Source of the DNA: Candidatus Latescibacterota bacterium
GTDB taxonomy: Bacteria > Latescibacterota > UBA2968
DNA length: 64,000 nucleotides
Direction of reading: 5' to 3'
Assembly (NCBI GenBank): GCA_965204745.1
Contig: OZ242010.1
Coordinates: 1,888,001-1,952,000, forward strand
The translations under genes and the position numbers were made by a program. The stretch's first letter is position 1; every line of letters starts with the position of its first letter. The notes below the pieces were generated by a model. It ran no database searches. It was not told the DNA's origin and saw nothing but the letters and a program-made list of their open reading frames with translations. This document shows, piece after piece, positions 4,853 to 56,148 of this stretch.

Positions 4853-7546
4853 ATGATTCTCATTCCATCGGAAGCAAGCGTTAGGCGGTCAGTGGTGGGC
4901 AAACGTCCCGTTTTGCTCGCATGCTTACCACTTCTCCTCGCGCTGTCAACGGTCTTTGTTTTTGGGCATGACCTGCGAAGTCACATAGAGCGTTCTCATA
5001 CTCACTCTATCCCTACGCATCATAGAATGGCGATAGCCGCCAATCTGTCTTTGGATCACAACTTCTTGCAGTTCTATCTCCAAACGCTCGAGGCAGATGG
5101 CACGGTTTCTTACGAACCGTATAATCGCTTTCCCATAGGTGGGCATGGGCTCATTGCGCTGGCTATCCTGCCCTTTGGCGATGACTTGGCAAGCCAACTC
5201 TATGCGGCCAGGACCCTGATGTTGCTGTGCTTTGTTGCCACAGCACTGCTGGCGTATCTCTGCCTTTGCCGGCTGACACATCATCCATGGATCGCCGCAA
5301 CCGCGACGCTCTTGGCGTTCTCATCGTTCTATTGCTTGTTCTATAGCGATATGGTGCATAATGAAGCGGGGATCGATCTGCTCGGGGTGATGCTGACCTT
5401 CCACGGGATGGTCATTTTCTTATGTGAGGGGCGTTTTCGGCAACTGCTGGTCAAGACGTGCATCGCGCTGTTTTTGGGCTGGCATGTCTATGCGTTGCTG
5501 TTGCCCTTTATCGCGCTCGGAGTGGTGCGCGAATGCCTCCACATGCGTTCAGTCCCTTTCAAGTTGAAGTGCTCCTGCCTGCTTCGCAGTCGCTATGTGT
5601 TGCTCGGCATTGTCGCATTGCTGTTTGGTTTGTCCTTATTGGCCTTTAATTTTGTCAATGAATACGTCGCGCTGAAAGGTGAGAAATCCCTGACGGAATT
5701 ACCGTCTTTCCGGTCTATGATATATCGCACGGGAATGGGTACCCCAGAAGATCGCCCTTCGCGCCCCTTGAAGTGGGATTCCTTCCTGCGAGGTCAATTC
5801 TCTCGCATTGGTGGGATGTCAACGCCGTATTTTATTTTTCCCTGCTTTGGCGTGCTTAGGCCACCGCAATCTTACGTGCCCTTGTCCGTTGGTGTGGGCA
5901 TTGGGGTGTCTATTGCGTGTCTGTTTGGGGTGTATTTCACGCGCCCGAGAATCCTTTGGGCGACCTTGATTCTGTTTGGCTTCTGTTGGACATTGCCCAT
6001 ACGCCATAACGTTAAAATGCTTGGCCATGAATTCGAGAGCGTGTTTTACATCGGCCTGCCCCTGGTCTTCTTCTCGCTTATTCTGCTGTGTCTATCCCGA
6101 CGCTTCAAGACCCCTCCCTTGATGGTCGGCTTTGCGGGTGTTGCGCTGATCATCTTTGTGCTTTCCAGTTTTCAGATGAGCCATTTCTATGCCCCCGATG
6201 CGACGCAACGCCAAAAGGTCGAGCTATCGGACATTGCAGCCATCCGCCGGTTAACGGCAGATGGCGACCTCATTTTTGTGCCGTTCTATGACCCACCTGA
6301 TTTAAATCGGACGTCGCGAGCTTACGAGAGGGCGAAGAGAAATTACTATTGGTCGCGGAGGATCATTCACACTCATTCTCTCCCCGCAGAGGGCTTCACG
6401 ATGATGTACGATCGTCTGGAGACAGACGCACTGCTCACGCCGAAAAACGAGCGGATATTTCTTTATGACTCCAAGAAATTGCTCAAAGCGTATCGGCAGG
6501 CAGTCGTGTCTGGCGAGCTCGTGGCGCGGTCAACCTTTGATGTGTATCGCGATGAGCGTGCGGTGCATTACGTCAAAAGTCCCTGTTCTGACGCGGACAT
6601 GCAGACCAAATTCTTCTTGCACATCTTTCCGACAGACGCGAGATCGATTCCCGTCCGCTGCAGGTGGCTTGGATATGACAACGAGGTCTTTAAGTTTCAG
6701 GATCGCGGTCTGCGGTTCGATGACAAATGCTTGGCGAGCATCGCGCTTCCGCACTACGATATCGCCCGGATTGAAACCGGGTCACTTTCCCGCGATTCCG
6801 ATCCAGAGCGGCTCGAGGTGTATCGGCAGGCATATCAGCGGGTCGTGTCTGGCGAGGTGGTGGCGCGGTCAACCTTCGATGTGTATCGCGATGAGCGCAC
6901 GTTGTATTACGTCAAAAGTCCCTGTTCTGATGCGGACGTGAAATTTCGATTCTTCTTGCACATCTTTCCCGCAGACGCGAAGGAGCTTCCCGTCCATCGC
7001 AGGCCGTATGGATATGACAACTACGACTTTGATTTTTCTTCGCAAGGTCAGCGGTTCGATGACAAATGCTTGGCGGGCATCGCGCTTCCGCATTACGATA
7101 TCGCCCGGATTGAAACCGGGCCACTTTCCCCCGGTCAAAGCAATGAACGCGCTGATGATCCCGGCAGGCTCGAGGTGTATCGGCAGGTTTATCAACGGGT
7201 CGTGTCTGGCGTGCCTGTGGCGCGGTCAATTTTCGATGTGTATCGCGATGAGCGCACATTGTATTACGTCAAAAGTCCCTGTTCTGATGCGGATGTGAAA
7301 TTACAATTCTTCTTACACCTCTTTCCGGCAGACGCGAAGGAGCTTCCCAGCCGTCGCTGGCAGTGGGGGTATAACAACGACAACTTTTCTTTTGTTGATC
7401 AAGGTCAGCGGTTCGATGACAAATGCTTGGCGAGCATCGCGCTTCCGCACTATGCCATCGCTCGTATTGAAACGGGTCAGTTCCATTGGAACAGCGGTGG
7501 CAAACACTGGGAGGCTAAAATTTTTTTCGACGAACAATCAAAGTAG
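4853..7546 (+). CDS. Array paralog 2 (3 C-terminal repeats)
   Basis: 897 aa ORF collinear with the other copies. Confidence 0.88.
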   Translation: MILIPSEASVRRSVVGKRPVLLACLPLLLALSTVFVFGHDLRSHIERSHTHSIPTHHRMAIAANLSLDHNFLQFYLQTLEADGTVSYEPYNRFPIGGHGLIALAILPFGDDLASQLYAARTLMLLCFVATALLAYLCLCRLTHHPWIAATATLLAFSSFYCLFYSDMVHNEAGIDLLGVMLTFHGMVIFLCEGRFRQLLVKTCIALFLGWHVYALLLPFIALGVVRECLHMRSVPFKLKCSCLLRSRYVLLGIVALLFGLSLLAFNFVNEYVALKGEKSLTELPSFRSMIYRTGMGTPEDRPSRPLKWDSFLRGQFSRIGGMSTPYFIFPCFGVLRPPQSYVPLSVGVGIGVSIACLFGVYFTRPRILWATLILFGFCWTLPIRHNVKMLGHEFESVFYIGLPLVFFSLILLCLSRRFKTPPLMVGFAGVALIIFVLSSFQMSHFYAPDATQRQKVELSDIAAIRRLTADGDLIFVPFYDPPDLNRTSRAYERAKRNYYWSRRIIHTHSLPAEGFTMMYDRLETDALLTPKNERIFLYDSKKLLKAYRQAVVSGELVARSTFDVYRDERAVHYVKSPCSDADMQTKFFLHIFPTDARSIPVRCRWLGYDNEVFKFQDRGLRFDDKCLASIALPHYDIARIETGSLSRDSDPERLEVYRQAYQRVVSGEVVARSTFDVYRDERTLYYVKSPCSDADVKFRFFLHIFPADAKELPVHRRPYGYDNYDFDFSSQGQRFDDKCLAGIALPHYDIARIETGPLSPGQSNERADDPGRLEVYRQVYQRVVSGVPVARSIFDVYRDERTLYYVKSPCSDADVKLQFFLHLFPADAKELPSRRWQWGYNNDNFSFVDQGQRFDDKCLASIALPHYAIARIETGQFHWNSGGKHWEAKIFFDEQSK

Positions 7547-37963: not shown

Positions 37964-38896
37964 CTAAAGCCCCGCAGCGAAAAAGGCTTTGAATACCTCA
38001 TCCGACACCGTTGCACAGGCTGCGCGGACGTTGGCTGTGAGTTGGTCTTTGTTCAGGCTACCGAGGGGGTTGCCGTGGATGCGGGTTTCGCGGATGGAAA
38101 ATTGCAAGGTGAGTTCGAGCAGGTCGTGCCCGCGTTCCTCGCACCACAGGCGCATGGTTTCCGCGCGATAGTGATCGTCTCGCCAGCGGTTGCGGGGGAC
38201 GAAATTTTCCACGGGCACACCCGTGAGATAGCCGCGCATGATGGACCAGCCGTTCATCACGCCCAAGTCGCGTTGGGCCGCAGCGGGCAGGATGTCGTCG
38301 CCGATGGTTTGCCGCAAGAGGTTGTGATCGCCAAAGCACAGGAAACAATCCGTGCGCCCGGATTCGATGTGCGCGAGGTGGAAATCGTGGGGGCGCATGC
38401 CGTAGCCGATAAAATTGACCCATCCCCGTTCTCGCGCTTTTTCCAAGCCTTCGAGCGTGCCGCCCGAGGCGAGCGTGGGTTCGATGGTTTCGGGATCGTG
38501 GATAAAGAGCACGTCAAAGTGGTCGATGCCCAAAATGTCGAGTTGGTCTGCCACATCGGCGAGCACGCGCTCGGCTGTGTAATCGGGATCGCCACTGCCA
38601 TATCCCCCCCATCGTGCCGCGCTGTGACAGCACACGCGCCCGCTGATGATGAGTTCCCCTCGCCTGACAACGCCTTGTTTGATGGCGAGGCCGAGTTTGC
38701 GAAGGGAGTCGCCGTAACACCGCGCACAATCGAAGTGGTTGACGCCGATATCCACGGCAAACCGAATGAGGTCCGCGGCTTCATCATCGGTGACCGGGCC
38801 AAAGTGGTTGCCAAACCCCTGCGTGCCAAACGGAATCACCGGGATGGAAAGTTCGGTCTTGCCCCAGCGTCGCCGGGGGACTTGCAGATCGGACAT
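37964..38896 (-). CDS. Aldo/keto reductase
   Basis: RRWGKTEL...FGT, GVNHFDCARCYG and D.LFIHDP motifs. Start MSDLQ at 38896. Confidence 0.85.
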   Translation of the reverse strand: MSDLQVPRRRWGKTELSIPVIPFGTQGFGNHFGPVTDDEAADLIRFAVDIGVNHFDCARCYGDSLRKLGLAIKQGVVRRGELIISGRVCCHSAARWGGYGSGDPDYTAERVLADVADQLDILGIDHFDVLFIHDPETIEPTLASGGTLEGLEKARERGWVNFIGYGMRPHDFHLAHIESGRTDCFLCFGDHNLLRQTIGDDILPAAAQRDLGVMNGWSIMRGYLTGVPVENFVPRNRWRDDHYRAETMRLWCEERGHDLLELTLQFSIRETRIHGNPLGSLNKDQLTANVRAACATVSDEVFKAFFAAGL

Positions 38897-38924
38897 GGGG
38901 AAAACTCCGGAAAAGAGAATGACC

Positions 38925-39293
38925 TCAATCGTCCAGCGCGTGCGCGACGAGATCGTCCATATCGACAAATTCGAGCGTGGAAATGTGCGTCCCCGGCAAA
39001 AAGACGGGCGGGGCAACGCCTGCATCTCGGGCTTCGATCCAGCGTTGCACGCACAGGCACCAGCGGTCGCCGGGCTTGAGCCCTGGAAAGCGATATTCCG
39101 GCATCGGGGTGCTCAGGTCATTGCCCACGGACCGGGAGAAAGCCAAAAACTCCTCGGTCATTTCCGCGCAGAGGATGTGCAATCCCAGATCGCCCGGACC
39201 CGTGCGGCAACAGCCATCTCGAAAAAAACCCGTCATCGGTTCGGTACAACAATCGACGAGTTCTCCGCCAAAAACATTTCTTCCGCGGTTCAT
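38925..39293 (-). CDS. DUF2237 family protein
   Basis: NVFGGEL..C...PMTGFFRDGCC.TG..D.GLH, GNDLSTP and PGDRWCLC motifs. Confidence 0.88.
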   Translation of the reverse strand: MNRGRNVFGGELVDCCTEPMTGFFRDGCCRTGPGDLGLHILCAEMTEEFLAFSRSVGNDLSTPMPEYRFPGLKPGDRWCLCVQRWIEARDAGVAPPVFLPGTHISTLEFVDMDDLVAHALDD

Positions 39294-39385
39294 GGTTCAC
39301 TCCAGGTGAGAGGCAAGAGGTGAGAAGGAAGAGGGCCGCCCTGCCCAACCCCCTTCGGCAAGACGGGAGATACTCTCTTAAAAGG

Positions 39386-40393
39386 TCAAGGGGTTTTCGG
39401 GGTGATTCGATAGAATTTTTCGCCCTCAAAATCTTGGTCATGGCGCAACATGCCCCAGATCGAATGGAGCAACTTTCGCATCACCGCAACGATAGCCTGC
39501 AAAGGTTTCTTGCCGCGGGCGATGAGTTGGTCATAGAAGGCTTTGACATGGCCTTCGTGTCTGATGGCCACCCAGGCAGGCATATAGAGGGCATGGCGGA
39601 GGTACTTATTCCCGGTTTTCGAGATGCGTCTTTGTGGATTGGCGGTTCCGGATTGTTTGGGTTTGGGATCCAGGCCTGCATGTGCGACCCACTGGGGCGG
39701 TTGCATCTCCTCTGGCAAAAGGGTCAACTCGGCCAAGAGCCGCAAGGCACTCGTTTGCGCGATGCCAGGCGTCGAGCAGAGGCGTTGGTAGGCACGCTTG
39801 AGGGGCTCATCGTGCAAAACGAGATCGAGGGCTTGGCTTTCCAAGTATGCAATCCGGCGTTTGAAGTGTCGAATATTCACCTGAATATCGCGTGCGATGA
39901 GACGTGTGCTGCGGATGTGGTAGCTCTGCGCGTGGTTGCGGCTCTGTTCGCGGATGATCTCCTGCTTGAGTTGGTCAATGCGTCTGGTGAGGGCTTGCAG
40001 TTGAAGCCGTTGCTCGCTCGGCGCTTGCCAAGGCACAAAAGGCATGCGCTCGGCATAGTCGAGGATCAACAACGCATCCTTCGCATCCGTCTTCGCCCGT
40101 TGCATGCAGGCTTGGGCGTACTTGCTCATCGCTTTGGGATTGACGACCATGACCTTTGTGTGGCGATGCCGATGCAAGGCCAAGGCCACCCCCAAACTGT
40201 AAAGCCCGGTCGCTTCGAGGCACACAGAGACCATGTGCCCGCCCTTCGTGAGCCACTTCAGCAACCGCTTATGGGCTTGGGGATCATTGGCAAAGGTCGC
40301 TTGCATGACAGCTTGTCCGGGTCTGGACAGGGCAACGGACAACGTGCGGGCACTGACATCAATGCCGGCAAAAGCGGGGTGAGATTTCGACAT
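39386..40393 (-). CDS. IS110 DEDD recombinase/transposase
   Basis: GIDVS, EATG, KTDAKDA and AGLDP...QSG motifs. AGGAGG RBS before MSKSHP. Confidence 0.95.
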   Translation of the reverse strand: MSKSHPAFAGIDVSARTLSVALSRPGQAVMQATFANDPQAHKRLLKWLTKGGHMVSVCLEATGLYSLGVALALHRHRHTKVMVVNPKAMSKYAQACMQRAKTDAKDALLILDYAERMPFVPWQAPSEQRLQLQALTRRIDQLKQEIIREQSRNHAQSYHIRSTRLIARDIQVNIRHFKRRIAYLESQALDLVLHDEPLKRAYQRLCSTPGIAQTSALRLLAELTLLPEEMQPPQWVAHAGLDPKPKQSGTANPQRRISKTGNKYLRHALYMPAWVAIRHEGHVKAFYDQLIARGKKPLQAIVAVMRKLLHSIWGMLRHDQDFEGEKFYRITPKTP

Positions 40394-40404
40394 GGGGGCC
40401 TCCT

Positions 40405-40655
40405 GTGATGAGGGGGTTGTAAGGGATCTGGTGCGCGCTCGGGGTCGCGTCCCGACCATTGACGCCAAGTCTACCGGTCTTGTATATGCAGCCTCAAGGG
40501 GCTTAGATACTCTTCGGCATAGACCCGGCGGTCGGGGGGCCTATCTTACCTACAAGGTCATCGCCTTCAAGAGGGGCCGGCCTTCCCCGAGCCGGGCATC
40601 AAGATGGCTTATCTCGATACGAGGGCGCAACTCCTAATTAACCCTTACTTCCAAG
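40405..40655 (-). ncRNA. Predicted IS110 bridge RNA (copy 1)
   Basis: Non-coding end upstream of the transposase with two internal loops carrying target- and donor-matching segments. RNA boundaries are approximate. Confidence 0.75.
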
Positions 40656-40662
40656 ATACAAG

Positions 40663-40800
40663 AGGGGAGAGGCAAGAGGTGAGAAGGCCACCCAATAACC
40701 CCAAGTGAGAGGGGAGAGGCAAGACGGGAGAAGGCCACCCAACCAACCCCAAGTGAGAGGGGAGAGGCAAGAGGTGAGAAGGCCACCCGACCAACCCCAA
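40663..40800 (+). repeat. Three ~45-50-bp tandem units built from heptamers (GAGAGGGGAGAGGCAAGA...GAGAAGGCCACCC)
   Basis: Visible tandem units. Related units occur in reverse orientation at 59592-59745. Confidence 0.75.
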
Positions 40801-40867
40801 AACCCGACGTGCTTTATTGATGAATTGCTATCGCAGTTGTACACCGTTCCGCCGATTCGCCGTTCTG

Positions 40868-42214
40868 TTAATTTGCATAAGACACAGTGCCGGTTTCATC
40901 GACCGTATAGCCCCACTGGTCGATATACGCCGCGCCGGGTAGAAACGAGTCGTTTTGTGCGTCGAGGCGGCGTTGTAGCCAGGCGTCTAATTCGAGTCGC
41001 AACTTCGCGTAGTCGGGGTGGTCGATGAGATTGTTCAACTGGAAGGGATCGGCATCGTTGTCGTAGAGCAACCACGGGCCGTCCAATGAGCGAACGTACG
41101 TGTATTGCCCGGTGCGTAGGCCGCGGTATTCACGGCCTCCCTTTGCGCGTGTCCACTGCCCAAAGGGTTGCGGGCATTGCAACAGAGCCGCGCCATCAGA
41201 GGGCGTGTCGCCCCCGTTGAGATAGGCCGAATAATCCAAGCCCTCGACCGTGGCCGGGATGTCGATCCCGCACAGGCCCAACAGCGTGGGCATGATGTCC
41301 GGGATGTCGATGGGGGCGTCAATCTCGCGGCCCGATGCGCCGAATTGCGCGGGCCAGCGCAACAAGAACGGAATGCGAATGGACTCGTCCCAAGGCTGTT
41401 GCTTTTTCGCGCTGCCCTGCGAGCCGAGCATGTCGCCGTGATCCGAAAAAAAGAGCAAGATCGTGTTGTCCGCCATGCCCGCGTCGTCGAGGGTTTGGAG
41501 CAGGTCGCCCATGCAATCGTCGAGCGCGGTGCAATGGGCGTAGTATCCCGCGATCCATTGTCGGGCGTTTGCTTCGGATTGCGGGGGCACATTGGGGCGC
41601 AACGGCACGTCTTCTGCGCGATACATGGCGCGGTATTTTTCCGGCGCGGTTTCATAAGGCGCGTGCGGCGGCCCCCACGAGAGCGCGAGGAGGAAGGGGT
41701 TGTCCGCATTGCGATTTTGAATGTAGGCTTGCACGTCGCGCGTTTGTGCGATGGCGTCGTATCCCTCCCACAGGAGCTTTTCGTCCGAGTTATCGGCATA
41801 GTAAAAAGATCGGTTGTAATTGTGCGTGCATTCCAACACTTTCCAATAGTCAAAGCCCTGCCGGTTTTCAGGGGGAATGTAGTTGGATCGCCCATTTGCA
41901 TGGACGTGCCATTTGCCGACGTACGCAGTGTCGTAGCCCGCGTTTTTGAATGCATGGGCAAGGCTCATCGCCCTGTCGCTCAGGTGAACATCGTTGACAA
42001 AAACCCCGTGCGTGAGGGGGTATTGACCCGTGAGCAGAGACGCACGCGCCGGGCTACAGACCGAGCACCCGGAAACCGCGTGCGTGGCATTGATGCTTTG
42101 AGACGCGAGCCGGTCGATGTTGGGCGTTTGCACGCAGGTGTTGCCGGCATAACCAAATGCCTGTGCGCGCCACTGATCGCCGAAGATGAGGATGACATTG
42201 GGAGATTCGGGCAT
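40868..42214 (-). CDS. Sulfatase (Cys-type)
   Basis: PNVILIFGDQWR, CSPAR..LTG, GKWH and SDHGDMLGS motifs. Start MPESPN. Confidence 0.92.
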   Translation of the reverse strand: MPESPNVILIFGDQWRAQAFGYAGNTCVQTPNIDRLASQSINATHAVSGCSVCSPARASLLTGQYPLTHGVFVNDVHLSDRAMSLAHAFKNAGYDTAYVGKWHVHANGRSNYIPPENRQGFDYWKVLECTHNYNRSFYYADNSDEKLLWEGYDAIAQTRDVQAYIQNRNADNPFLLALSWGPPHAPYETAPEKYRAMYRAEDVPLRPNVPPQSEANARQWIAGYYAHCTALDDCMGDLLQTLDDAGMADNTILLFFSDHGDMLGSQGSAKKQQPWDESIRIPFLLRWPAQFGASGREIDAPIDIPDIMPTLLGLCGIDIPATVEGLDYSAYLNGGDTPSDGAALLQCPQPFGQWTRAKGGREYRGLRTGQYTYVRSLDGPWLLYDNDADPFQLNNLIDHPDYAKLRLELDAWLQRRLDAQNDSFLPGAAYIDQWGYTVDETGTVSYAN

Positions 42215-54391: not shown

Positions 54392-54514
54392 TGTCGTTCC
54401 CTCGCGTTGAATGGGTCTGGGTTTGAGTAATGGGTGCGAAAATAAATCATGAGAAGGATAATGTCAATAGGGGCAAGAGGGGAGAGGCAAGAGGCAAGAT
54501 ACTCTCTTAAAAGG

Positions 54515-55522
54515 TCAAGGGGTTTTCGGGGTGATTCGATAGAATTTTTCGCCCTCAAAATCTTGGTCATGGCGCAACATGCCCCAGATCGAATGGAGCA
54601 ACTTTCGCATCACCGCAACGATAGCCTGCAAAGGTTTCTTGCCGCGGGCGATGAGTTGGTCATAGAAGGCTTTGACATGGCCTTCGTGTCTGATGGCCAC
54701 CCAGGCAGGCATATAGAGGGCATGGCGGAGGTACTTATTCCCGGTTTTCGAGATGCGTCTTTGTGGATTGGCGGTTCCGGATTGTTTGGGTTTGGGATCC
54801 AGGCCTGCATGTGCGACCCACTGGGGCGGTTGCATCTCCTCTGGCAAAAGGGTCAACTCGGCCAAGAGCCGCAAGGCACTCGTTTGCGCGATGCCAGGCG
54901 TCGAGCAGAGGCGTTGGTAGGCACGCTTGAGGGGCTCATCGTGCAAAACGAGATCGAGGGCTTGGCTTTCCAAGTATGCAATCCGGCGTTTGAAGTGTCG
55001 AATATTCACCTGAATATCGCGTGCGATGAGACGTGTGCTGCGGATGTGGTAGCTCTGCGCGTGGTTGCGGCTCTGTTCGCGGATGATCTCCTGCTTGAGT
55101 TGGTCAATGCGTCTGGTGAGGGCTTGCAGTTGAAGCCGTTGCTCGCTCGGCGCTTGCCAAGGCACAAAAGGCATGCGCTCGGCATAGTCGAGGATCAACA
55201 ACGCATCCTTCGCATCCGTCTTCGCCCGTTGCATGCAGGCTTGGGCGTACTTGCTCATCGCTTTGGGATTGACGACCATGACCTTTGTGTGGCGATGCCG
55301 ATGCAAGGCCAAGGCCACCCCCAAACTGTAAAGCCCGGTCGCTTCGAGGCACACAGAGACCATGTGCCCGCCCTTCGTGAGCCACTTCAGCAACCGCTTA
55401 TGCGCTTGGGGATCATTGGCAAAGGTCGCTTGCATGACAGCTTGTCCGGGTCTGGACAGGGCAACGGACAACGTGCGGGCACTGACATCAATGCCGGCAA
55501 AAGCGGGGTGAGATTTCGACAT
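54515..55522 (-). CDS. IS110 DEDD recombinase/transposase (copy 2)
   Basis: Protein identical to copy 1. Confidence 0.95.
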   Translation of the reverse strand: MSKSHPAFAGIDVSARTLSVALSRPGQAVMQATFANDPQAHKRLLKWLTKGGHMVSVCLEATGLYSLGVALALHRHRHTKVMVVNPKAMSKYAQACMQRAKTDAKDALLILDYAERMPFVPWQAPSEQRLQLQALTRRIDQLKQEIIREQSRNHAQSYHIRSTRLIARDIQVNIRHFKRRIAYLESQALDLVLHDEPLKRAYQRLCSTPGIAQTSALRLLAELTLLPEEMQPPQWVAHAGLDPKPKQSGTANPQRRISKTGNKYLRHALYMPAWVAIRHEGHVKAFYDQLIARGKKPLQAIVAVMRKLLHSIWGMLRHDQDFEGEKFYRITPKTP

Positions 55523-55533
55523 GGGGGCCTCCT

Positions 55534-55784
55534 GTGATGAGGGGGTTGTAAGGGATCTGGTGCGCGCTCGGGGTCGCGTCCCGACCATTGACGCCAAGTC
55601 TACCGGTCTTGTATATGCAGCCTCAAGGGGCTTAGATACTCTTCGGCATAGACCCGGCGGTCGGGGGGCCTATCTTACCTACAAGGTCATCGCCTTCAAG
55701 AGGGGCCGGCCTTCCCCGAGCCGGGCATCAAGATGGCTTATCTCGATACGAGGGCGCAACTCCTAATTAACCCTTACTTCCAAG
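55534..55784 (-). ncRNA. Predicted IS110 bridge RNA (copy 2)
   Basis: Same sequence as 40405-40655. Confidence 0.75.
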
Positions 55785-56148
55785 ATACAAGAGGGGAGAA
55801 GGCTACCGGGCTGTTCCTCAAGTTGTCAGTTGTCAGTTGACTAATTCTAACGAACATAGCGGTGGGGAGCGGGCGGGCACGCACGGGTGGCGGGGTGGAG
55901 CAGATGGGGACGCACGGGCGGTTGGGTAGGGCGGTGGGCAGATCTCACCTCTTACTTCTTGCCTCTTACTTGGGGGCAGGGCTTGCGGTGGGGCGGAGGG
56001 GGTAGGGTAATCCGCGCAATCCCCTAATCCGCGAAAATCCGCGATCCGCTTTTACTCTTGAACTATTTTTATATCTGTATTATAGTTGGCCTTACCACGT
56101 AACGACATATCGCCTCTCTGCTCCCCATTCCATTGGAGGCGTTTTTTT

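What the first reader, a model, noticed from the sequence alone, without database searches (positions are those of the whole stretch)
40405..40662. Decodable IS110 bridge RNA programmed against the host's heptamer repeat
Seen (minus strand): the junctions reconstruct a donor AGAGTAT-CT-TGTAT and targets CTCCCCT-CT-TGCCT (copy 2) and CTCCCCT-CT-CCCGT (copy 1). In the non-coding end, a loop closed by GGGG..GGCC/GGCC-CCCC holds CCCCTCT (40570-40576, left target guide), an AAGG/CCTT hairpin and AGGTAAG (40545-40551, pairing with CTTGCCT via one G:U). A second loop holds AGAGTATCT (40505-40513, left donor guide), an AGCC/GGCT hairpin and ATACAAG (40479-40485, right donor guide). Knowledge: this is the IS621 bridge-RNA layout with a CT core, and as I recall it the IS621 donor differs by one base. 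Inference: a natural bridge recombinase retargeted to TCTCCCC/TCTT(G/A)CC heptamer tracts. Copy 1 suggests tolerance of right-target mismatches.
Basis: partly seen in the sequence, partly recalled or inferred. Interest (0 to 1): 0.8.

Follow-up and report, generated by a model that had tools for sequence, protein, structure and literature searches.

The report
IS110 bridge RNA aimed at heptamer repeats
This is the guide-RNA end of a jumping gene of the IS110/IS621 kind, present in about 50 copies, whose RNA loops spell out both its own ends and the host's seven-base repeat where it lands; it is a clear new example of a known mechanism.

Summary
Observation confirmed. All four motifs sit at the stated coordinates. 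The two junctions give donor AGAGTAT-CT-TGTAT and target CCCCT-CT-CCCGT for this copy, and CCCCT-CT-TGCCT for the window's second copy.

The 1,291-bp element encodes a 335-aa DEDD/Ser recombinase, matching IS621 at E 6e-36 and ISCro4 at 8e-40. Its 5' leader folds into a 5' stem-loop, a target loop and a donor loop.

The genome holds 52 full copies, all with CT at both junctions. Of the 45 copies carrying this guide pair, 38 match the guides at 9-10 of 10 non-core positions.

Guides covary with targets across 14 lineages from 9 genomes: mean self score 8.8/10 against 4.7 when permuted (0 of 100,000). 14 of 30 stem pairs show compensatory changes. Handshake positions and a split -35/-10 junction promoter are conserved.

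So it is an IS621-type bridge RNA aimed at adjacent host heptamers (TCTCCCC + TCTT[A/G]CC). It is a new member of a known kind. No RNA, circle junction or activity could be tested.

A 195-bp miniature copy elsewhere in the genome carries a right-target guide that matches CT-CCCGT exactly, so guidance in trans is possible.

The parts
40663..40667 (-). Left target (LT) CCCCT, the variable part of host heptamer TCTCCCC plus T
   Evidence: The same 5-mer flanks 41 of the 45 copies with this guide pair.
40661..40662 (-). Core CT at the left junction
   Evidence: CT is present at the left junction of 52 of 52 full copies.
39370..40660 (-). IS110-group insertion sequence body (1,291 bp between the two CT cores)
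   Evidence: blastn and the genome search: 52 full-length copies, 37 of them at 99.1% identity or more. Public contigs break at 39368 and at 40658-40672.
40656..40660 (-). Right donor (RD) TGTAT, the first bases of the element
   Evidence: It is complementary to the RDG. TGTA[TC] is conserved in all relatives.
40653..40658 (-). -10-like hexamer TATCTT of the split junction promoter
   Evidence: Geometry. TGTATCTT is conserved at the left end in relatives of 52-84% protein identity. Inferred, not shown to be active.
40596..40620 (-). 5' stem-loop of the bridge RNA (10 bp, 5-nt loop)
   Evidence: MFE fold, positions 21-45.
40530..40593 (-). Target-binding loop module (outer stem, internal loop, inner hairpin)
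   Evidence: Fold. Helix 1 is 93% paired and helix 2 is 100% paired across 20 sequences, with compensatory changes.
40570..40576 (-). Left target guide (LTG) CCCCUCU, identical to LT plus core, so it pairs the bottom strand. The next base (40569, U) may pair the first right-target base.
   Evidence: Sublineage changes to TCCCU, CGCCU and UGCCU track the left flanks. In sublineage v5 the base after the core is C and its right target starts with C.
40554..40567 (-). Inner hairpin of the target loop (AAGG / CCUU)
   Evidence: 4 pairs, 100% paired; AAGC/GCUU in the Gemmatimonadota relative.
40545..40551 (-). Right target guide (RTG) AGGUAAG, complementary to CT-TACCT (CT-TGCCT needs one G:U)
   Evidence: Perfect sites are 20 occupied and 5 empty. 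Wobble sites are 17 occupied and 65 empty.
40543..40544 (-). Target-loop handshake guide AU, complementary to donor positions 7 and 6 (T, A)
   Evidence: Position 1 forms a Watson-Crick pair in 13 of 13 lineage representatives. It covaries (G:C) in the one lineage with a different donor.
40464..40529 (-). Donor-binding loop module
   Evidence: Fold. The outer stem has 13 pairs, 9 with changes on both sides.
40505..40513 (-). Left donor guide (LDG) AGAGUAUCU, identical to the last 7 bases of the element plus CT
   Evidence: In locus L070 the guide and the right end both change, to GAAAAC.
40490..40503 (-). Inner hairpin of the donor loop (AGCC / GGCU)
   Evidence: column pair 103/113 shows UG, CG, AU and GC.
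40479..40485 (-). Right donor guide (RDG) AUACAAG, complementary to CT-TGTAT
40478..40478 (-). Donor-loop handshake position (A), opposite target position 7 (T)
   Evidence: with one row corrected: 10 Watson-Crick, 2 G:U and 1 mismatch in 13 lineages, using A:T, G:C, C:G and U:A.
39386..40393 (-). Recombinase gene (335 aa plus stop): DEDD RuvC-like domain and Tnp domain
   Evidence: Pfam PF01548 at 1.2e-24 and PF02371 at 4.8e-20. PDB ISCro4 at 7.6e-40 and IS621 at 5.8e-36. D12, E60, D103, D106 and S248 align with the IS621 catalytic residues. The ORF is intact in 51 of 52 copies.
39384..39389 (-). -35-like hexamer TTGACC in the right end, overlapping the stop codon
   Evidence: 14 nt to the element end, plus CT, plus 2 nt, gives an 18-nt spacer to TATCTT once the ends are joined. 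TTGA[CA] sits at the same place in relatives.
39370..39376 (-). Left donor (LD) AGAGTAT, the last bases of the element
39368..39369 (-). Core CT at the right junction
   Evidence: Present in 52 of 52 copies.
39363..39367 (-). Right target of this copy, CCCGT (3 of 5 bases mismatched to its own RTG)
   Evidence: own guide 7 of 10; miniature-copy guide 10 of 10.
54497..55791 (-). Second copy of the element in the window, including both CT cores, in CCCCT-CT-TGCCT
   Evidence: 1 difference in 1,295 bases.

Best explanation
The region 40405-40662 (minus strand) is the left non-coding end of an IS110-group insertion sequence and encodes an IS621-type bridge RNA.

How it most likely works:

- After excision the two ends join at the CT core. 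This places a -35 box (TTGACC, right end) 18 nt from a -10 box (TATCTT, left end), so the bridge RNA and the recombinase are transcribed.

- The RNA folds into a 5' stem-loop, a target-binding loop and a donor-binding loop.

- In the target loop, CCCCUCU pairs the bottom strand of CCCCT-CT. AGGUAAG pairs the top strand of CT-TACCT, or of CT-TGCCT with one G:U.

- In the donor loop, AGAGUAUCU and AUACAAG hold the joined ends AGAGTAT-CT-TGTAT.

- A tetramer of the 335-aa DEDD/Ser recombinase exchanges strands at CT, helped by handshake bases next to the right guides.

The target is the boundary between two adjacent host heptamers, TCTCCCC and TCTT[A/G]CC. The invariant TCT supplies the core and the variable 4-mers supply the address.

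Shown here: the anatomy, the copy census, guide-target and stem covariation, and conservation of the catalytic residues.

Inferred by analogy with IS621: transcription, RNA binding, circle formation and catalysis.
For: **Motifs.** They sit at the stated coordinates. All four together arose in 0 of 200,000 shuffles.

**Protein.** Both Pfam domains are present. It matches IS621 and ISCro4. The DEDD and Ser residues align (residue roles from PMC11208158, passages seen).

**Copies.** There are 52 full copies, all with CT at both junctions. 51 of 52 ORFs are intact.

**Fit to the guides.** Of 45 copies with this guide pair, 20 match at 10/10 non-core positions, 18 at 9/10, 5 at 8/10 and 2 at 7/10.

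**Selectivity.**

| Site | Occupied | Empty |
|---|---|---|
| CCCCT-CT-TACCT (perfect) | 20 | 5 |
| CCCCT-CT-TGCCT (one G:U) | 17 | 65 |
| TGCCT-CT-TGCCT | 0 | 241 |

**Guide-target covariation.** It was measured in 84 elements of 14 lineages from 9 genomes. The mean self score is 8.8/10 against 4.68 +/- 0.47 when permuted (0 of 100,000 reached it) (sequences).

**Structure.** MFE is -81.2 kcal/mol, z -2.96. 94% of cells are paired, and 14 of 30 pairs have changes on both sides. 0 of 500 shuffles reach this, and slid controls give 28-53% paired.

**Other features.**

- A covariance model built from the alignment finds 59 strong copies in the genome.

- Donor guide and right end change together in L070.

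- Handshake positions pair and covary.

- The split promoter is conserved.

- The orthologous intergenic region lacks the element in two same-genus genomes.

- The strand rules match the IS621 description in PMC11208160: LTG pairs the bottom strand, RTG pairs the top strand, and the core is included in both (passages).
Against: - No RNA data exist for this organism among the listed runs, and no circle junction was seen. Only assembled contigs could be laid.

- Rfam has no matching family, so the structural assignment rests on my own alignment.

- 12 of the 20 aligned rows come from three same-genus genomes, which inflates the shuffle statistics.

- 7 of 45 copies have two or three mismatches to their own guides.

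- The left guide matches only 5+2 bases here, against 7+2 in IS621. It also sits one position off the register of most relatives.

- The promoter is only a consensus resemblance in a phylum whose promoters are not characterised.
Confidence: 0.88

Rival explanations
1. The leader is only a structured 5' UTR or regulatory element of the transposase gene. Site choice is made by the protein, and the guide-like matches are incidental.
For: No RNA or activity data. No Rfam match. An outer helix in the MFE fold encloses the whole leader.
Against: Four motif matches fall in the right loops, in the right order and on the right strands. The guides change together with the targets in 14 lineages. Sublineages of 89-96% DNA identity within one genome differ in target exactly as their loops differ. 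Handshake covariation is present.
Confidence: 0.04
2. Sub-claim about this copy: it landed in CCCCT-CT-CCCGT through its own bridge RNA, because a left-half match is enough (right-target mismatch tolerance, or 'half-match' insertion).
For: The left half and core match 7 of 7. Two of 45 copies sit in this site class. The abstract of bioRxiv 10.64898/2026.08.31.748434 reports half-match off-target insertion for IS621 (abstract seen). IS621 natively uses only a 4-nt RTG (PMC11208160).
Against: Both poorly matched copies have the same right target. That target is also the exact prediction of another guide variant in the genome. Only 1 of the other 43 copies has a right target more than one base from TACCT or TGCCT... 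in fact all 43 are within one base.
Confidence: 0.4
3. Sub-claim about this copy: it was placed by a bridge RNA, or a target-loop module, made in trans from another copy. A 195-bp miniature derivative at genome 2972659-2972850 has LTG CCCCUCU and RTG ACGGGAG. A truncated copy at about 845317-845479 carries the same RTG. In the same way, the copy at 602777 sits in the site specified by the guides of sublineage v5.
For: The miniature-copy guides score 10/10 on CCCCT-CT-CCCGT, against 7/10 for the copy's own guides. The v5 guides score 10/10 on the site of the 602777 copy, against 7/10 for its own. All sublineages share the same donor ends, so any of their RNAs could move any copy. IS621 bridge RNA works in trans (PMC11208160). 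Target and donor loops in one complex come from two RNA molecules (PMC11208158).
Against: The miniature copy lacks the -35 box and the 3' strand of the donor-loop stem, so its expression is doubtful. TCTCCCG is a common heptamer (362 units), so two hits on CCCGT could be chance. I estimate roughly 0.1-0.25 from the site counts. The 602777 copy looks like a recombinant of two sublineages, so its guides may have been replaced after insertion.
Confidence: 0.35
4. Sub-claim about this copy: it inserted at a cognate CCCCT-CT-T[A/G]CCT site, and the neighbouring heptamer was later lost by slippage of the 7-nt tract.
For: The tracts are hypervariable. The orthologous intergenic region has a different tract in one same-genus genome and none in another. 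A deletion of whole heptamers next to the element would keep the CT.
Against: No direct evidence. It would have to have happened twice, producing the same right flank each time.
Confidence: 0.2

Closest known systems
IS621 of Escherichia coli and its bridge RNA (Durrant et al. 2024, PMC11208160; Hiraizumi et al. 2024, PMC11208158)
   Same: - Same protein domains and catalytic residues.
- The RNA lies in the long left end.
- The order is 5' stem-loop, variable target loop, conserved donor loop.
- LTG and LDG read like the top strand; RTG and RDG are complementary to it.
- The core is CT.
- Handshake bases follow the right guides.
- The -35 box is in the right end and the -10 box in the left end.
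- The donor differs at 1 of 14 bases.
- It targets a host repeat.
   Different: - The protein is only distantly similar (E 5.8e-36). blastn found no DNA similarity in 5,426 E. coli genomes.
- The target is a pair of adjacent heptamer-repeat units, not a REP element.
- The left guide matches 5+2 bases (possibly +1 beyond the core) instead of 7+2.
- The right guide is a full 5+2 instead of 2+2.
- The host is an uncultured Latescibacterota-like bacterium carrying 52 copies.
ISCro4 transposase (PDB 9t56)
   Same: Best-scoring solved relative (E 7.6e-40, aligned over residues 7-326).
   Different: Only the protein was compared. Its RNA and target were not examined here.
ISPpu9 / ISPpu10 of Pseudomonas putida (PMC12288879; bioRxiv 10.64898/2026.03.19.712850; abstracts seen)
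   Same: IS110-family elements that insert into a repeated intergenic host sequence. ISPpu9 has extra solitary copies of its small-RNA gene, a precedent for the miniature RNA-only copy seen here.
   Different: In ISPpu9 the RNA gene lies downstream of the transposase. The targets there are REP-type palindromes, not heptamer tracts.
IS1111 group / RNA in the right end
   Same: Same recombinase family, with RNA-guided targeting.
   Different: Here the left end is about 267 nt and the right end is 16 nt after the stop codon. No long sub-terminal inverted repeats are present. This places the element in the IS110 group by the criteria in PMC11208160 (passages).

Membership tests
IS110 family, IS110 group (IS621-type bridge recombinase system) | Recombinase with an N-terminal DEDD RuvC-like domain (PF01548) and a C-terminal Tnp domain (PF02371) carrying a conserved Ser | tested here: met
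   (1.2e-24 and 4.8e-20); the alignment to IS621 places D12, E60, D103, D106 and S248 opposite the IS621 catalytic residues named in PMC11208158.
IS110 family, IS110 group (IS621-type bridge recombinase system) | Long left non-coding end and short right end | tested here: met
   The left end runs from 40660 to 40394 (267 nt). The right end runs from 39385 to 39370 (16 nt). Criterion from PMC11208160.
IS110 family, IS110 group (IS621-type bridge recombinase system) | [quoted passage not shown] | tested here: met
   94% of cells are paired and 14 of 30 pairs are compensatory. Target-loop columns vary while donor-loop columns are nearly invariant.
IS110 family, IS110 group (IS621-type bridge recombinase system) | Target loop: LTG equals left target plus core (bottom-strand pairing), and RTG is complementary to core plus right target | tested here: met
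   38 of 45 copies match at 9/10 or better. Covariation across 14 lineages: 0 of 100,000 permutations reach the observed score.
IS110 family, IS110 group (IS621-type bridge recombinase system) | Donor loop: LDG equals left donor plus core, and RDG is complementary to core plus right donor | tested here: met
   (9-nt and 7-nt exact matches). Joint change of guide and right end in L070.
IS110 family, IS110 group (IS621-type bridge recombinase system) | The same core dinucleotide (CT) at both junctions, with no other duplication | tested here: met
   52 of 52 copies.
IS110 family, IS110 group (IS621-type bridge recombinase system) | Handshake guides next to the RTG and RDG that pair position 7 of the non-cognate DNA | tested here: met
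   Target-loop position against donor position 7: 13 of 13 Watson-Crick pairs. Donor-loop position against target position 7: 12 of 13 pairable, after correcting one mis-parsed row.
IS110 family, IS110 group (IS621-type bridge recombinase system) | Promoter rebuilt across the joined ends (-35 in the right end, -10 in the left end) | tested here: inconclusive
   Hexamers TTGACC and TATCTT would lie 18 nt apart after joining, and they are conserved in relatives. No transcription data. The scan tool cannot see a split promoter.
IS110 family, IS110 group (IS621-type bridge recombinase system) | Circular intermediate, expressed RNA bound by the recombinase, and RNA-programmed recombination | not testable with these tools
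   Only assembled contigs were available and no RNA runs were listed.
IS1111 group | Long right end holding the RNA, with 7-17-bp sub-terminal inverted repeats | tested here: not met
   The right end is 16 nt long and the RNA lies in the left end. Criterion from PMC11208160.
Any Rfam RNA family | Match to a curated covariance model | tested here: not met
   no match at E up to 1 in window 38000-42000.

The most novel reading that the evidence does not exclude
Within this one genome the element family keeps a pool of bridge-RNA variants. These comprise four full-length guide sublineages plus target-loop modules on a miniature copy and on truncated copies. The variants may act in trans on a shared donor.

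The host heptamer tract would then work as a combinatorial address space: an invariant TCT supplies the core, and two adjacent 4-base variable parts supply the address. The family would explore this space by single-base guide changes.

Full-length copies sitting at sites that only another copy's guides match (window copy 1, the copy at 5152008, and the copy at 602777) would be footprints of such trans-guidance.
Probability: 0.3. Interest if true: 0.55.

Novelty: new member of a known kind. Interest (0 to 1): 0.4.

Why it matters
It adds a cleanly decodable natural bridge-recombinase system from a little-studied, uncultured lineage. The recombinase is compact at 335 aa, and the target is a short 12-13-bp site.

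The genome also offers an unusually rich internal data set:

- 52 copies
- several guide sublineages whose targets shift exactly as the loops shift
- handshake covariation
- an occupancy gradient: perfect sites 80% filled, G:U sites 21% filled, other sites about 0-5% filled

This is natural evidence for rules so far established mostly on IS621. It also gives concrete substrates for testing right-guide length, G:U tolerance, half-match insertion and guidance in trans. It does not reveal a new mechanism.

Tried and rejected
**Rfam.** No family matched the leader. This is not evidence against an RNA, because no matching bridge-RNA model seems to be in that library.

**Direct comparison with IS621 DNA.** blastn of the whole element against 5,426 E. 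coli genomes found no match. IS621 itself could therefore not be fetched and aligned. The comparison rests on the PDB protein hit and on text passages of the papers.

**Sequencing runs.** 24 runs were listed, all kept as assembled contigs, and no RNA holder was listed.

**Laid contigs.** I laid four coded runs (X1, X2, X6, X10).

- Contigs of all four cover parts of the element and break at its ends.
- No joint of the 'goes back' kind that would show a circle junction was listed.
- The few 'skips' joints lie in the repeat flanks and are ambiguous.
- This is neither support for nor evidence against circles or expression.

**Promoter and terminator scan.** It found one internal promoter-like site at about the level expected by chance (1 found, 0.5 expected). 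It found no terminator and cannot see a split promoter.

I therefore could not see whether public sources name this protein.

**Literature searches.**

- 'Latescibacter' plus 'IS110': 0 papers.
- 'IS110' plus 'heptamer': 1 unrelated paper.

By these two searches this element and its heptamer target are not in the held library.

**Supplements not seen.** They list thousands of IS110 elements with predicted guides and may already include relatives of this element.

**Core register.** I considered whether the core in this lineage could be TT, shifted by one base. I rejected it because copies with right targets CCCGT or CACCT share only CT between their two junctions.

**A parsing error.** A regex mis-parsed one row (G128). 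I corrected it by reading alignment A1.

Full report
**What is in the sequence.** On the minus strand the host sequence ...TCTTGCCTCTCCCCT-CT is followed at 40660 by TGTATCTTGG.... The element ends at 39370 with ...AAGAGAGTAT. After it come CT (39369-39368) and CCCGTCTTGCC.

- CCCCTCT at 40576-40570
- AGGTAAG at 40551-40545
- AGAGTATCT at 40513-40505
- ATACAAG at 40485-40479

In 200,000 shuffles of the leader the four motifs occurred at 0.021, 0.012, 0.0005 and 0.0096, and never all together.

**The element.**

- Between the two CT cores lie 1,291 bp.
- The ORF at 40393-39386 encodes 335 aa with DEDD_Tnp_IS110 (1.2e-24) and Transposase_20 (4.8e-20).
- Its best solved relatives are the ISCro4 transposase (7.6e-40) and the IS621 transposase (5.8e-36).
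- In the printed alignment D12, E60, D103, D106 and S248 stand opposite the IS621 residues. Hiraizumi et al. name these as the composite active site, D11/E60/D102/D105/S241; the PDB chain numbering is offset by 2 (passages).
- The left non-coding end is 267 nt and the right end 16 nt. Durrant et al. give this as the IS110-group pattern, in contrast to IS1111 (passages).

**Copies and target.** The window lies in a 5.48-Mb single-contig genome. blastn finds 52 full-length copies:

| Identity to this copy | Copies |
|---|---|
| 99.1-100% | 37 |
| 96.2% | 8 |
| 95.8% | 1 |
| 94.9% | 1 |
| 88.4-89.0% | 5 |

There are also 16 partial matches. All 52 copies have CT before the left end and CT after the right end. 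51 of 52 keep the 335-aa frame.

Forty-five copies carry the same guide pair as the window copy. Their sites are:

| Site | Copies |
|---|---|
| CCCCT-CT-TACCT | 20 |
| CCCCT-CT-TGCCT | 17 |
| TACCT-CT-TACCT | 4 |
| CCCCT-CT-CCCGT | 2 |
| CCCCT-CT-TACTT | 1 |
| CCCCT-CT-TGCCC | 1 |

Scored at the ten non-core positions, 20 copies match 10/10, 18 match 9/10, 5 match 8/10 and 2 match 7/10.

**Selectivity.** The genome still holds 5 empty CCCCT-CT-TACCT sites, so 20 of 25 are filled. It holds 65 empty CCCCT-CT-TGCCT sites, so 17 of 82 are filled. It holds 83 empty TACCT-CT-TACCT sites. It also holds 241 empty TGCCT-CT-TGCCT sites, none of them filled. The Watson-Crick site is thus preferred over the G:U site, and both are strongly preferred over other heptamer pairs.

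**Guides change with targets inside the genome.** The leader occurs in ten variants.

- Sublineage v5 has LTG UCCCUCU and RTG AGGUGAG, and sits in TCCCT-CT-CACCT. The base after the core in its loop is C where the others have U, matching the first right-target base.
- Sublineages v7 and v9 have CGCCUCU and AAGUAAG. They sit in CGCCT- or CACCT-CT-TACTT (3 copies) or in CGCCT-CT-TACCT (1 copy).
- Sublineage v8 has UGCCUCU and AAGUAAG, and sits in TACCT-CT-TACTT (one G:U).

**Guides change with targets in other genomes.** Relatives were found in two chromosomes titled as Latescibacteria/Latescibacterota MAGs (76-84% protein identity) and in a Gemmatimonadota contig (48%). More relatives came from further genomes of the same phylum at 52-64% identity. 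In that search 19 of 168 genomes had a match, including 3 of 21 in the genus, counting the window's own.

Each lineage has its own loops and matching flanks:

- One same-genus genome has LTG CUCGCCUCU and RTG AGGGAG. Its 18 copies sit in [CT][GA]CCT-CT-CCC..., again in heptamer tracts.
- The other same-genus genome has UCC[UC]CCU and AGAAAAG, and sits in C-rich sites followed by CT-TTTCT, not in heptamer tracts.
- Loci L068, L071 and L072 match their flanks nearly perfectly.

86 elements were parsed, and 2 that lacked a right end were dropped. Over the remaining 84 elements in 14 lineages the mean self score is 8.8/10. The off-diagonal mean is 4.4, and the permuted mean is 4.68 +/- 0.47. None of 100,000 permutations reached the observed value.

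**RNA structure.**

- The single-sequence fold is -81.2 kcal/mol, z -2.96, with 0 of 200 shuffles as stable. It gives a 5' stem-loop (40620-40596), a target module (40593-40530) and a donor module (40529-40464).
- I aligned twenty leaders. RNAalifold returned the same four helices.
- I removed four pairs that RNAalifold had drawn into the guide region. The structure then has 94.0% of cells paired, against 86.2% in shuffles and 28-53% when partners are slid.
- 14 of 30 pairs have changes on both sides (7.2 expected). 0 of 500 shuffles reach the covariation score.
- Twelve of the twenty rows come from three same-genus genomes, so the shuffle figures are inflated. The compensatory changes, however, lie mostly in the eight divergent rows.
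- A covariance model built from this alignment finds 61 matches in the genome. These are the 52 full copies, 7 truncated or miniature copies at 104-167 bits, and two weak hits.
- As in the IS621 family description, the first loop varies and the second is nearly invariant.

**Donor loop, handshake and promoter.**

- The LDG equals the last seven bases plus CT. The RDG is complementary to CT plus the first five bases.
- In L070 the right end reads ...GAAAAC-CT, and the donor guide changes in step.
- The two bases after the RTG (AU, 40544-40543) are complementary to donor positions 7 and 6. The first of them forms a Watson-Crick pair in 13 of 13 lineage representatives. It is G opposite C in L070, the only lineage with a changed donor.
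- The base after the RDG faces target position 7. It pairs in 12 of 13 lineages (10 Watson-Crick, 2 G:U, 1 mismatch), using A:T, G:C, C:G and U:A (with the G128 row corrected).
- This is the handshake-guide pattern reported for IS621 (passages).
- TTGACC (39389-39384, overlapping the stop codon) lies 14 nt from the element end, and TATCTT starts 2 nt into the left end. Joining the ends at one CT gives an 18-nt spacer.
- Both hexamers are conserved in the relatives. Durrant et al. describe the same split sigma-70 promoter for IS621. This is a sequence resemblance only.

**The poorly matched copies.** Window copy 1 and the copy at genome position 5152008 sit in CCCCT-CT-CCCGT, which scores 7/10 with their own guides.

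Elsewhere in the genome (2972659-2972850) lies a single 195-bp miniature derivative. Its left end runs up to the RDG and is fused directly to the last bases of the right end. [quoted passage not shown]

Its target loop has LTG CCCCUCU and RTG ACGGGAG, which predicts CCCCT-CT-CCCGT exactly (10/10). It sits itself in CCCCT-CT-CCCTT. A truncated copy near 845317 carries the same RTG.

Likewise the copy at 602777 scores 7/10 with its own guides, but sits in the site that the v5 guides match 10/10. Its leader looks like a recombinant of two sublineages.

Three explanations stay open for copy 1:

- insertion on a left-half match alone; the abstract of a 2026 preprint reports such half-match events for IS621
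- guidance in trans by a variant RNA; trans action and two-RNA complexes are documented for IS621
- loss of a heptamer by slippage after insertion

TCTCCCG is a common unit, so two hits on it are not statistically compelling.

**The host repeat.** Tracts of three or more units of TCT[CT][ACG]C[CGT] number 636, with a median of 4 units and a maximum of 48, totalling 25.5 kb. The commonest units are TCTTGCC (697), TCTCACC (612), TCTTACC (366), TCTCCCG (362), TCTTACG (281) and TCTCCCC (255).

Only 34% of tract bases lie in long open frames, against 77% genome-wide, so the tracts are mostly intergenic. The CT core is the CT of the invariant TCT. The left and right targets are the variable parts of two neighbouring units.

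At the window locus the element lies between a sulfatase gene and a DUF2237 gene. Two same-genus genomes have the same two genes with no element between them. One has a short heptamer tract there and the other has none.

**Comparison and novelty.** Every defining sequence feature of the IS110-group bridge system that could be tested is met. Expression, circles and catalysis could not be tested.

Durrant et al. already report predicted bridge RNAs in 85.7% of catalogued IS110s, and concordance between natural guides and target motifs. Repeat targeting is the family's known habit. This is therefore a new member, not a new kind. Its particular points are:

- the heptamer-pair target
- the short 5+2 left guide with a full 5+2 right guide
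- the one-position register shift of the left guide relative to most relatives
- the within-genome set of guide sublineages
- the miniature RNA-only derivative

Two literature searches found nothing on this element. The closed supplementary tables of the 2024 paper might list relatives.

**Not available.** No raw reads or RNA runs could be used.

Noticed in passing
genome G000:C1:2972659-2972850 (outside the window): A single 195-bp miniature derivative of the element. The left end, up to the right donor guide, is fused to the last bases of the right end. It keeps both donor arms and a complete target loop with a different right guide (ACGGGAG). It may be a non-autonomous element or a source of guide RNA in trans.
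   Followed up: partly
genome G000:C1:1121598-1124185 (outside the window): Two full copies (99.9% and 96.2% sublineages) lie head to tail, separated by only CT-TACCT-CT. One inserted right next to the other in the same heptamer tract.
   Followed up: partly
window 40663-40830 and 39300-39367; genome-wide: The host has 636 tracts of the heptamer TCT[CT][ACG]C[CGT], up to 48 units long and mostly intergenic. They are often preceded by a GGTGGCC-like motif. Here they are embedded in three tandem ~48-nt units. The pyrimidine strand resembles anti-Shine-Dalgarno sequence. Their function is unknown. They are present in one same-genus genome at the orthologous site and absent in another.
   Followed up: partly
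window 2331-31929 (+): Twelve tandem paralogous ORFs of 763-901 aa, separated by about 30 nt (66 nt at one junction), with internal ~350-nt repeats. The one tested (4853-7546) has no Pfam match.
   Followed up: partly
genome G000:C1:949236-949361 (outside the window): A weak covariance-model hit (31.6 bits) lies next to what looks like a tRNA gene. It has a donor-loop-like segment (…GAAGAGTATC…ACAAG…), and may be a remnant of another IS110-type element.
   Followed up: no
window 40441-40453 with 40623-40634 (-): The MFE fold pairs the start of the leader with a segment just after the donor loop, enclosing the whole bridge RNA. A small GGTCG/CGACC hairpin after the donor loop seems conserved in relatives. 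Neither was tested for covariation.
   Followed up: no
loci L069 and L086 (same genome), L070, L071: In some diverged relatives the left guide has AU, UU or CC where the core CT is expected. One copy (L086) has AT instead of CT at its left junction. This hints at natural variation in the core or in its pairing.
   Followed up: no
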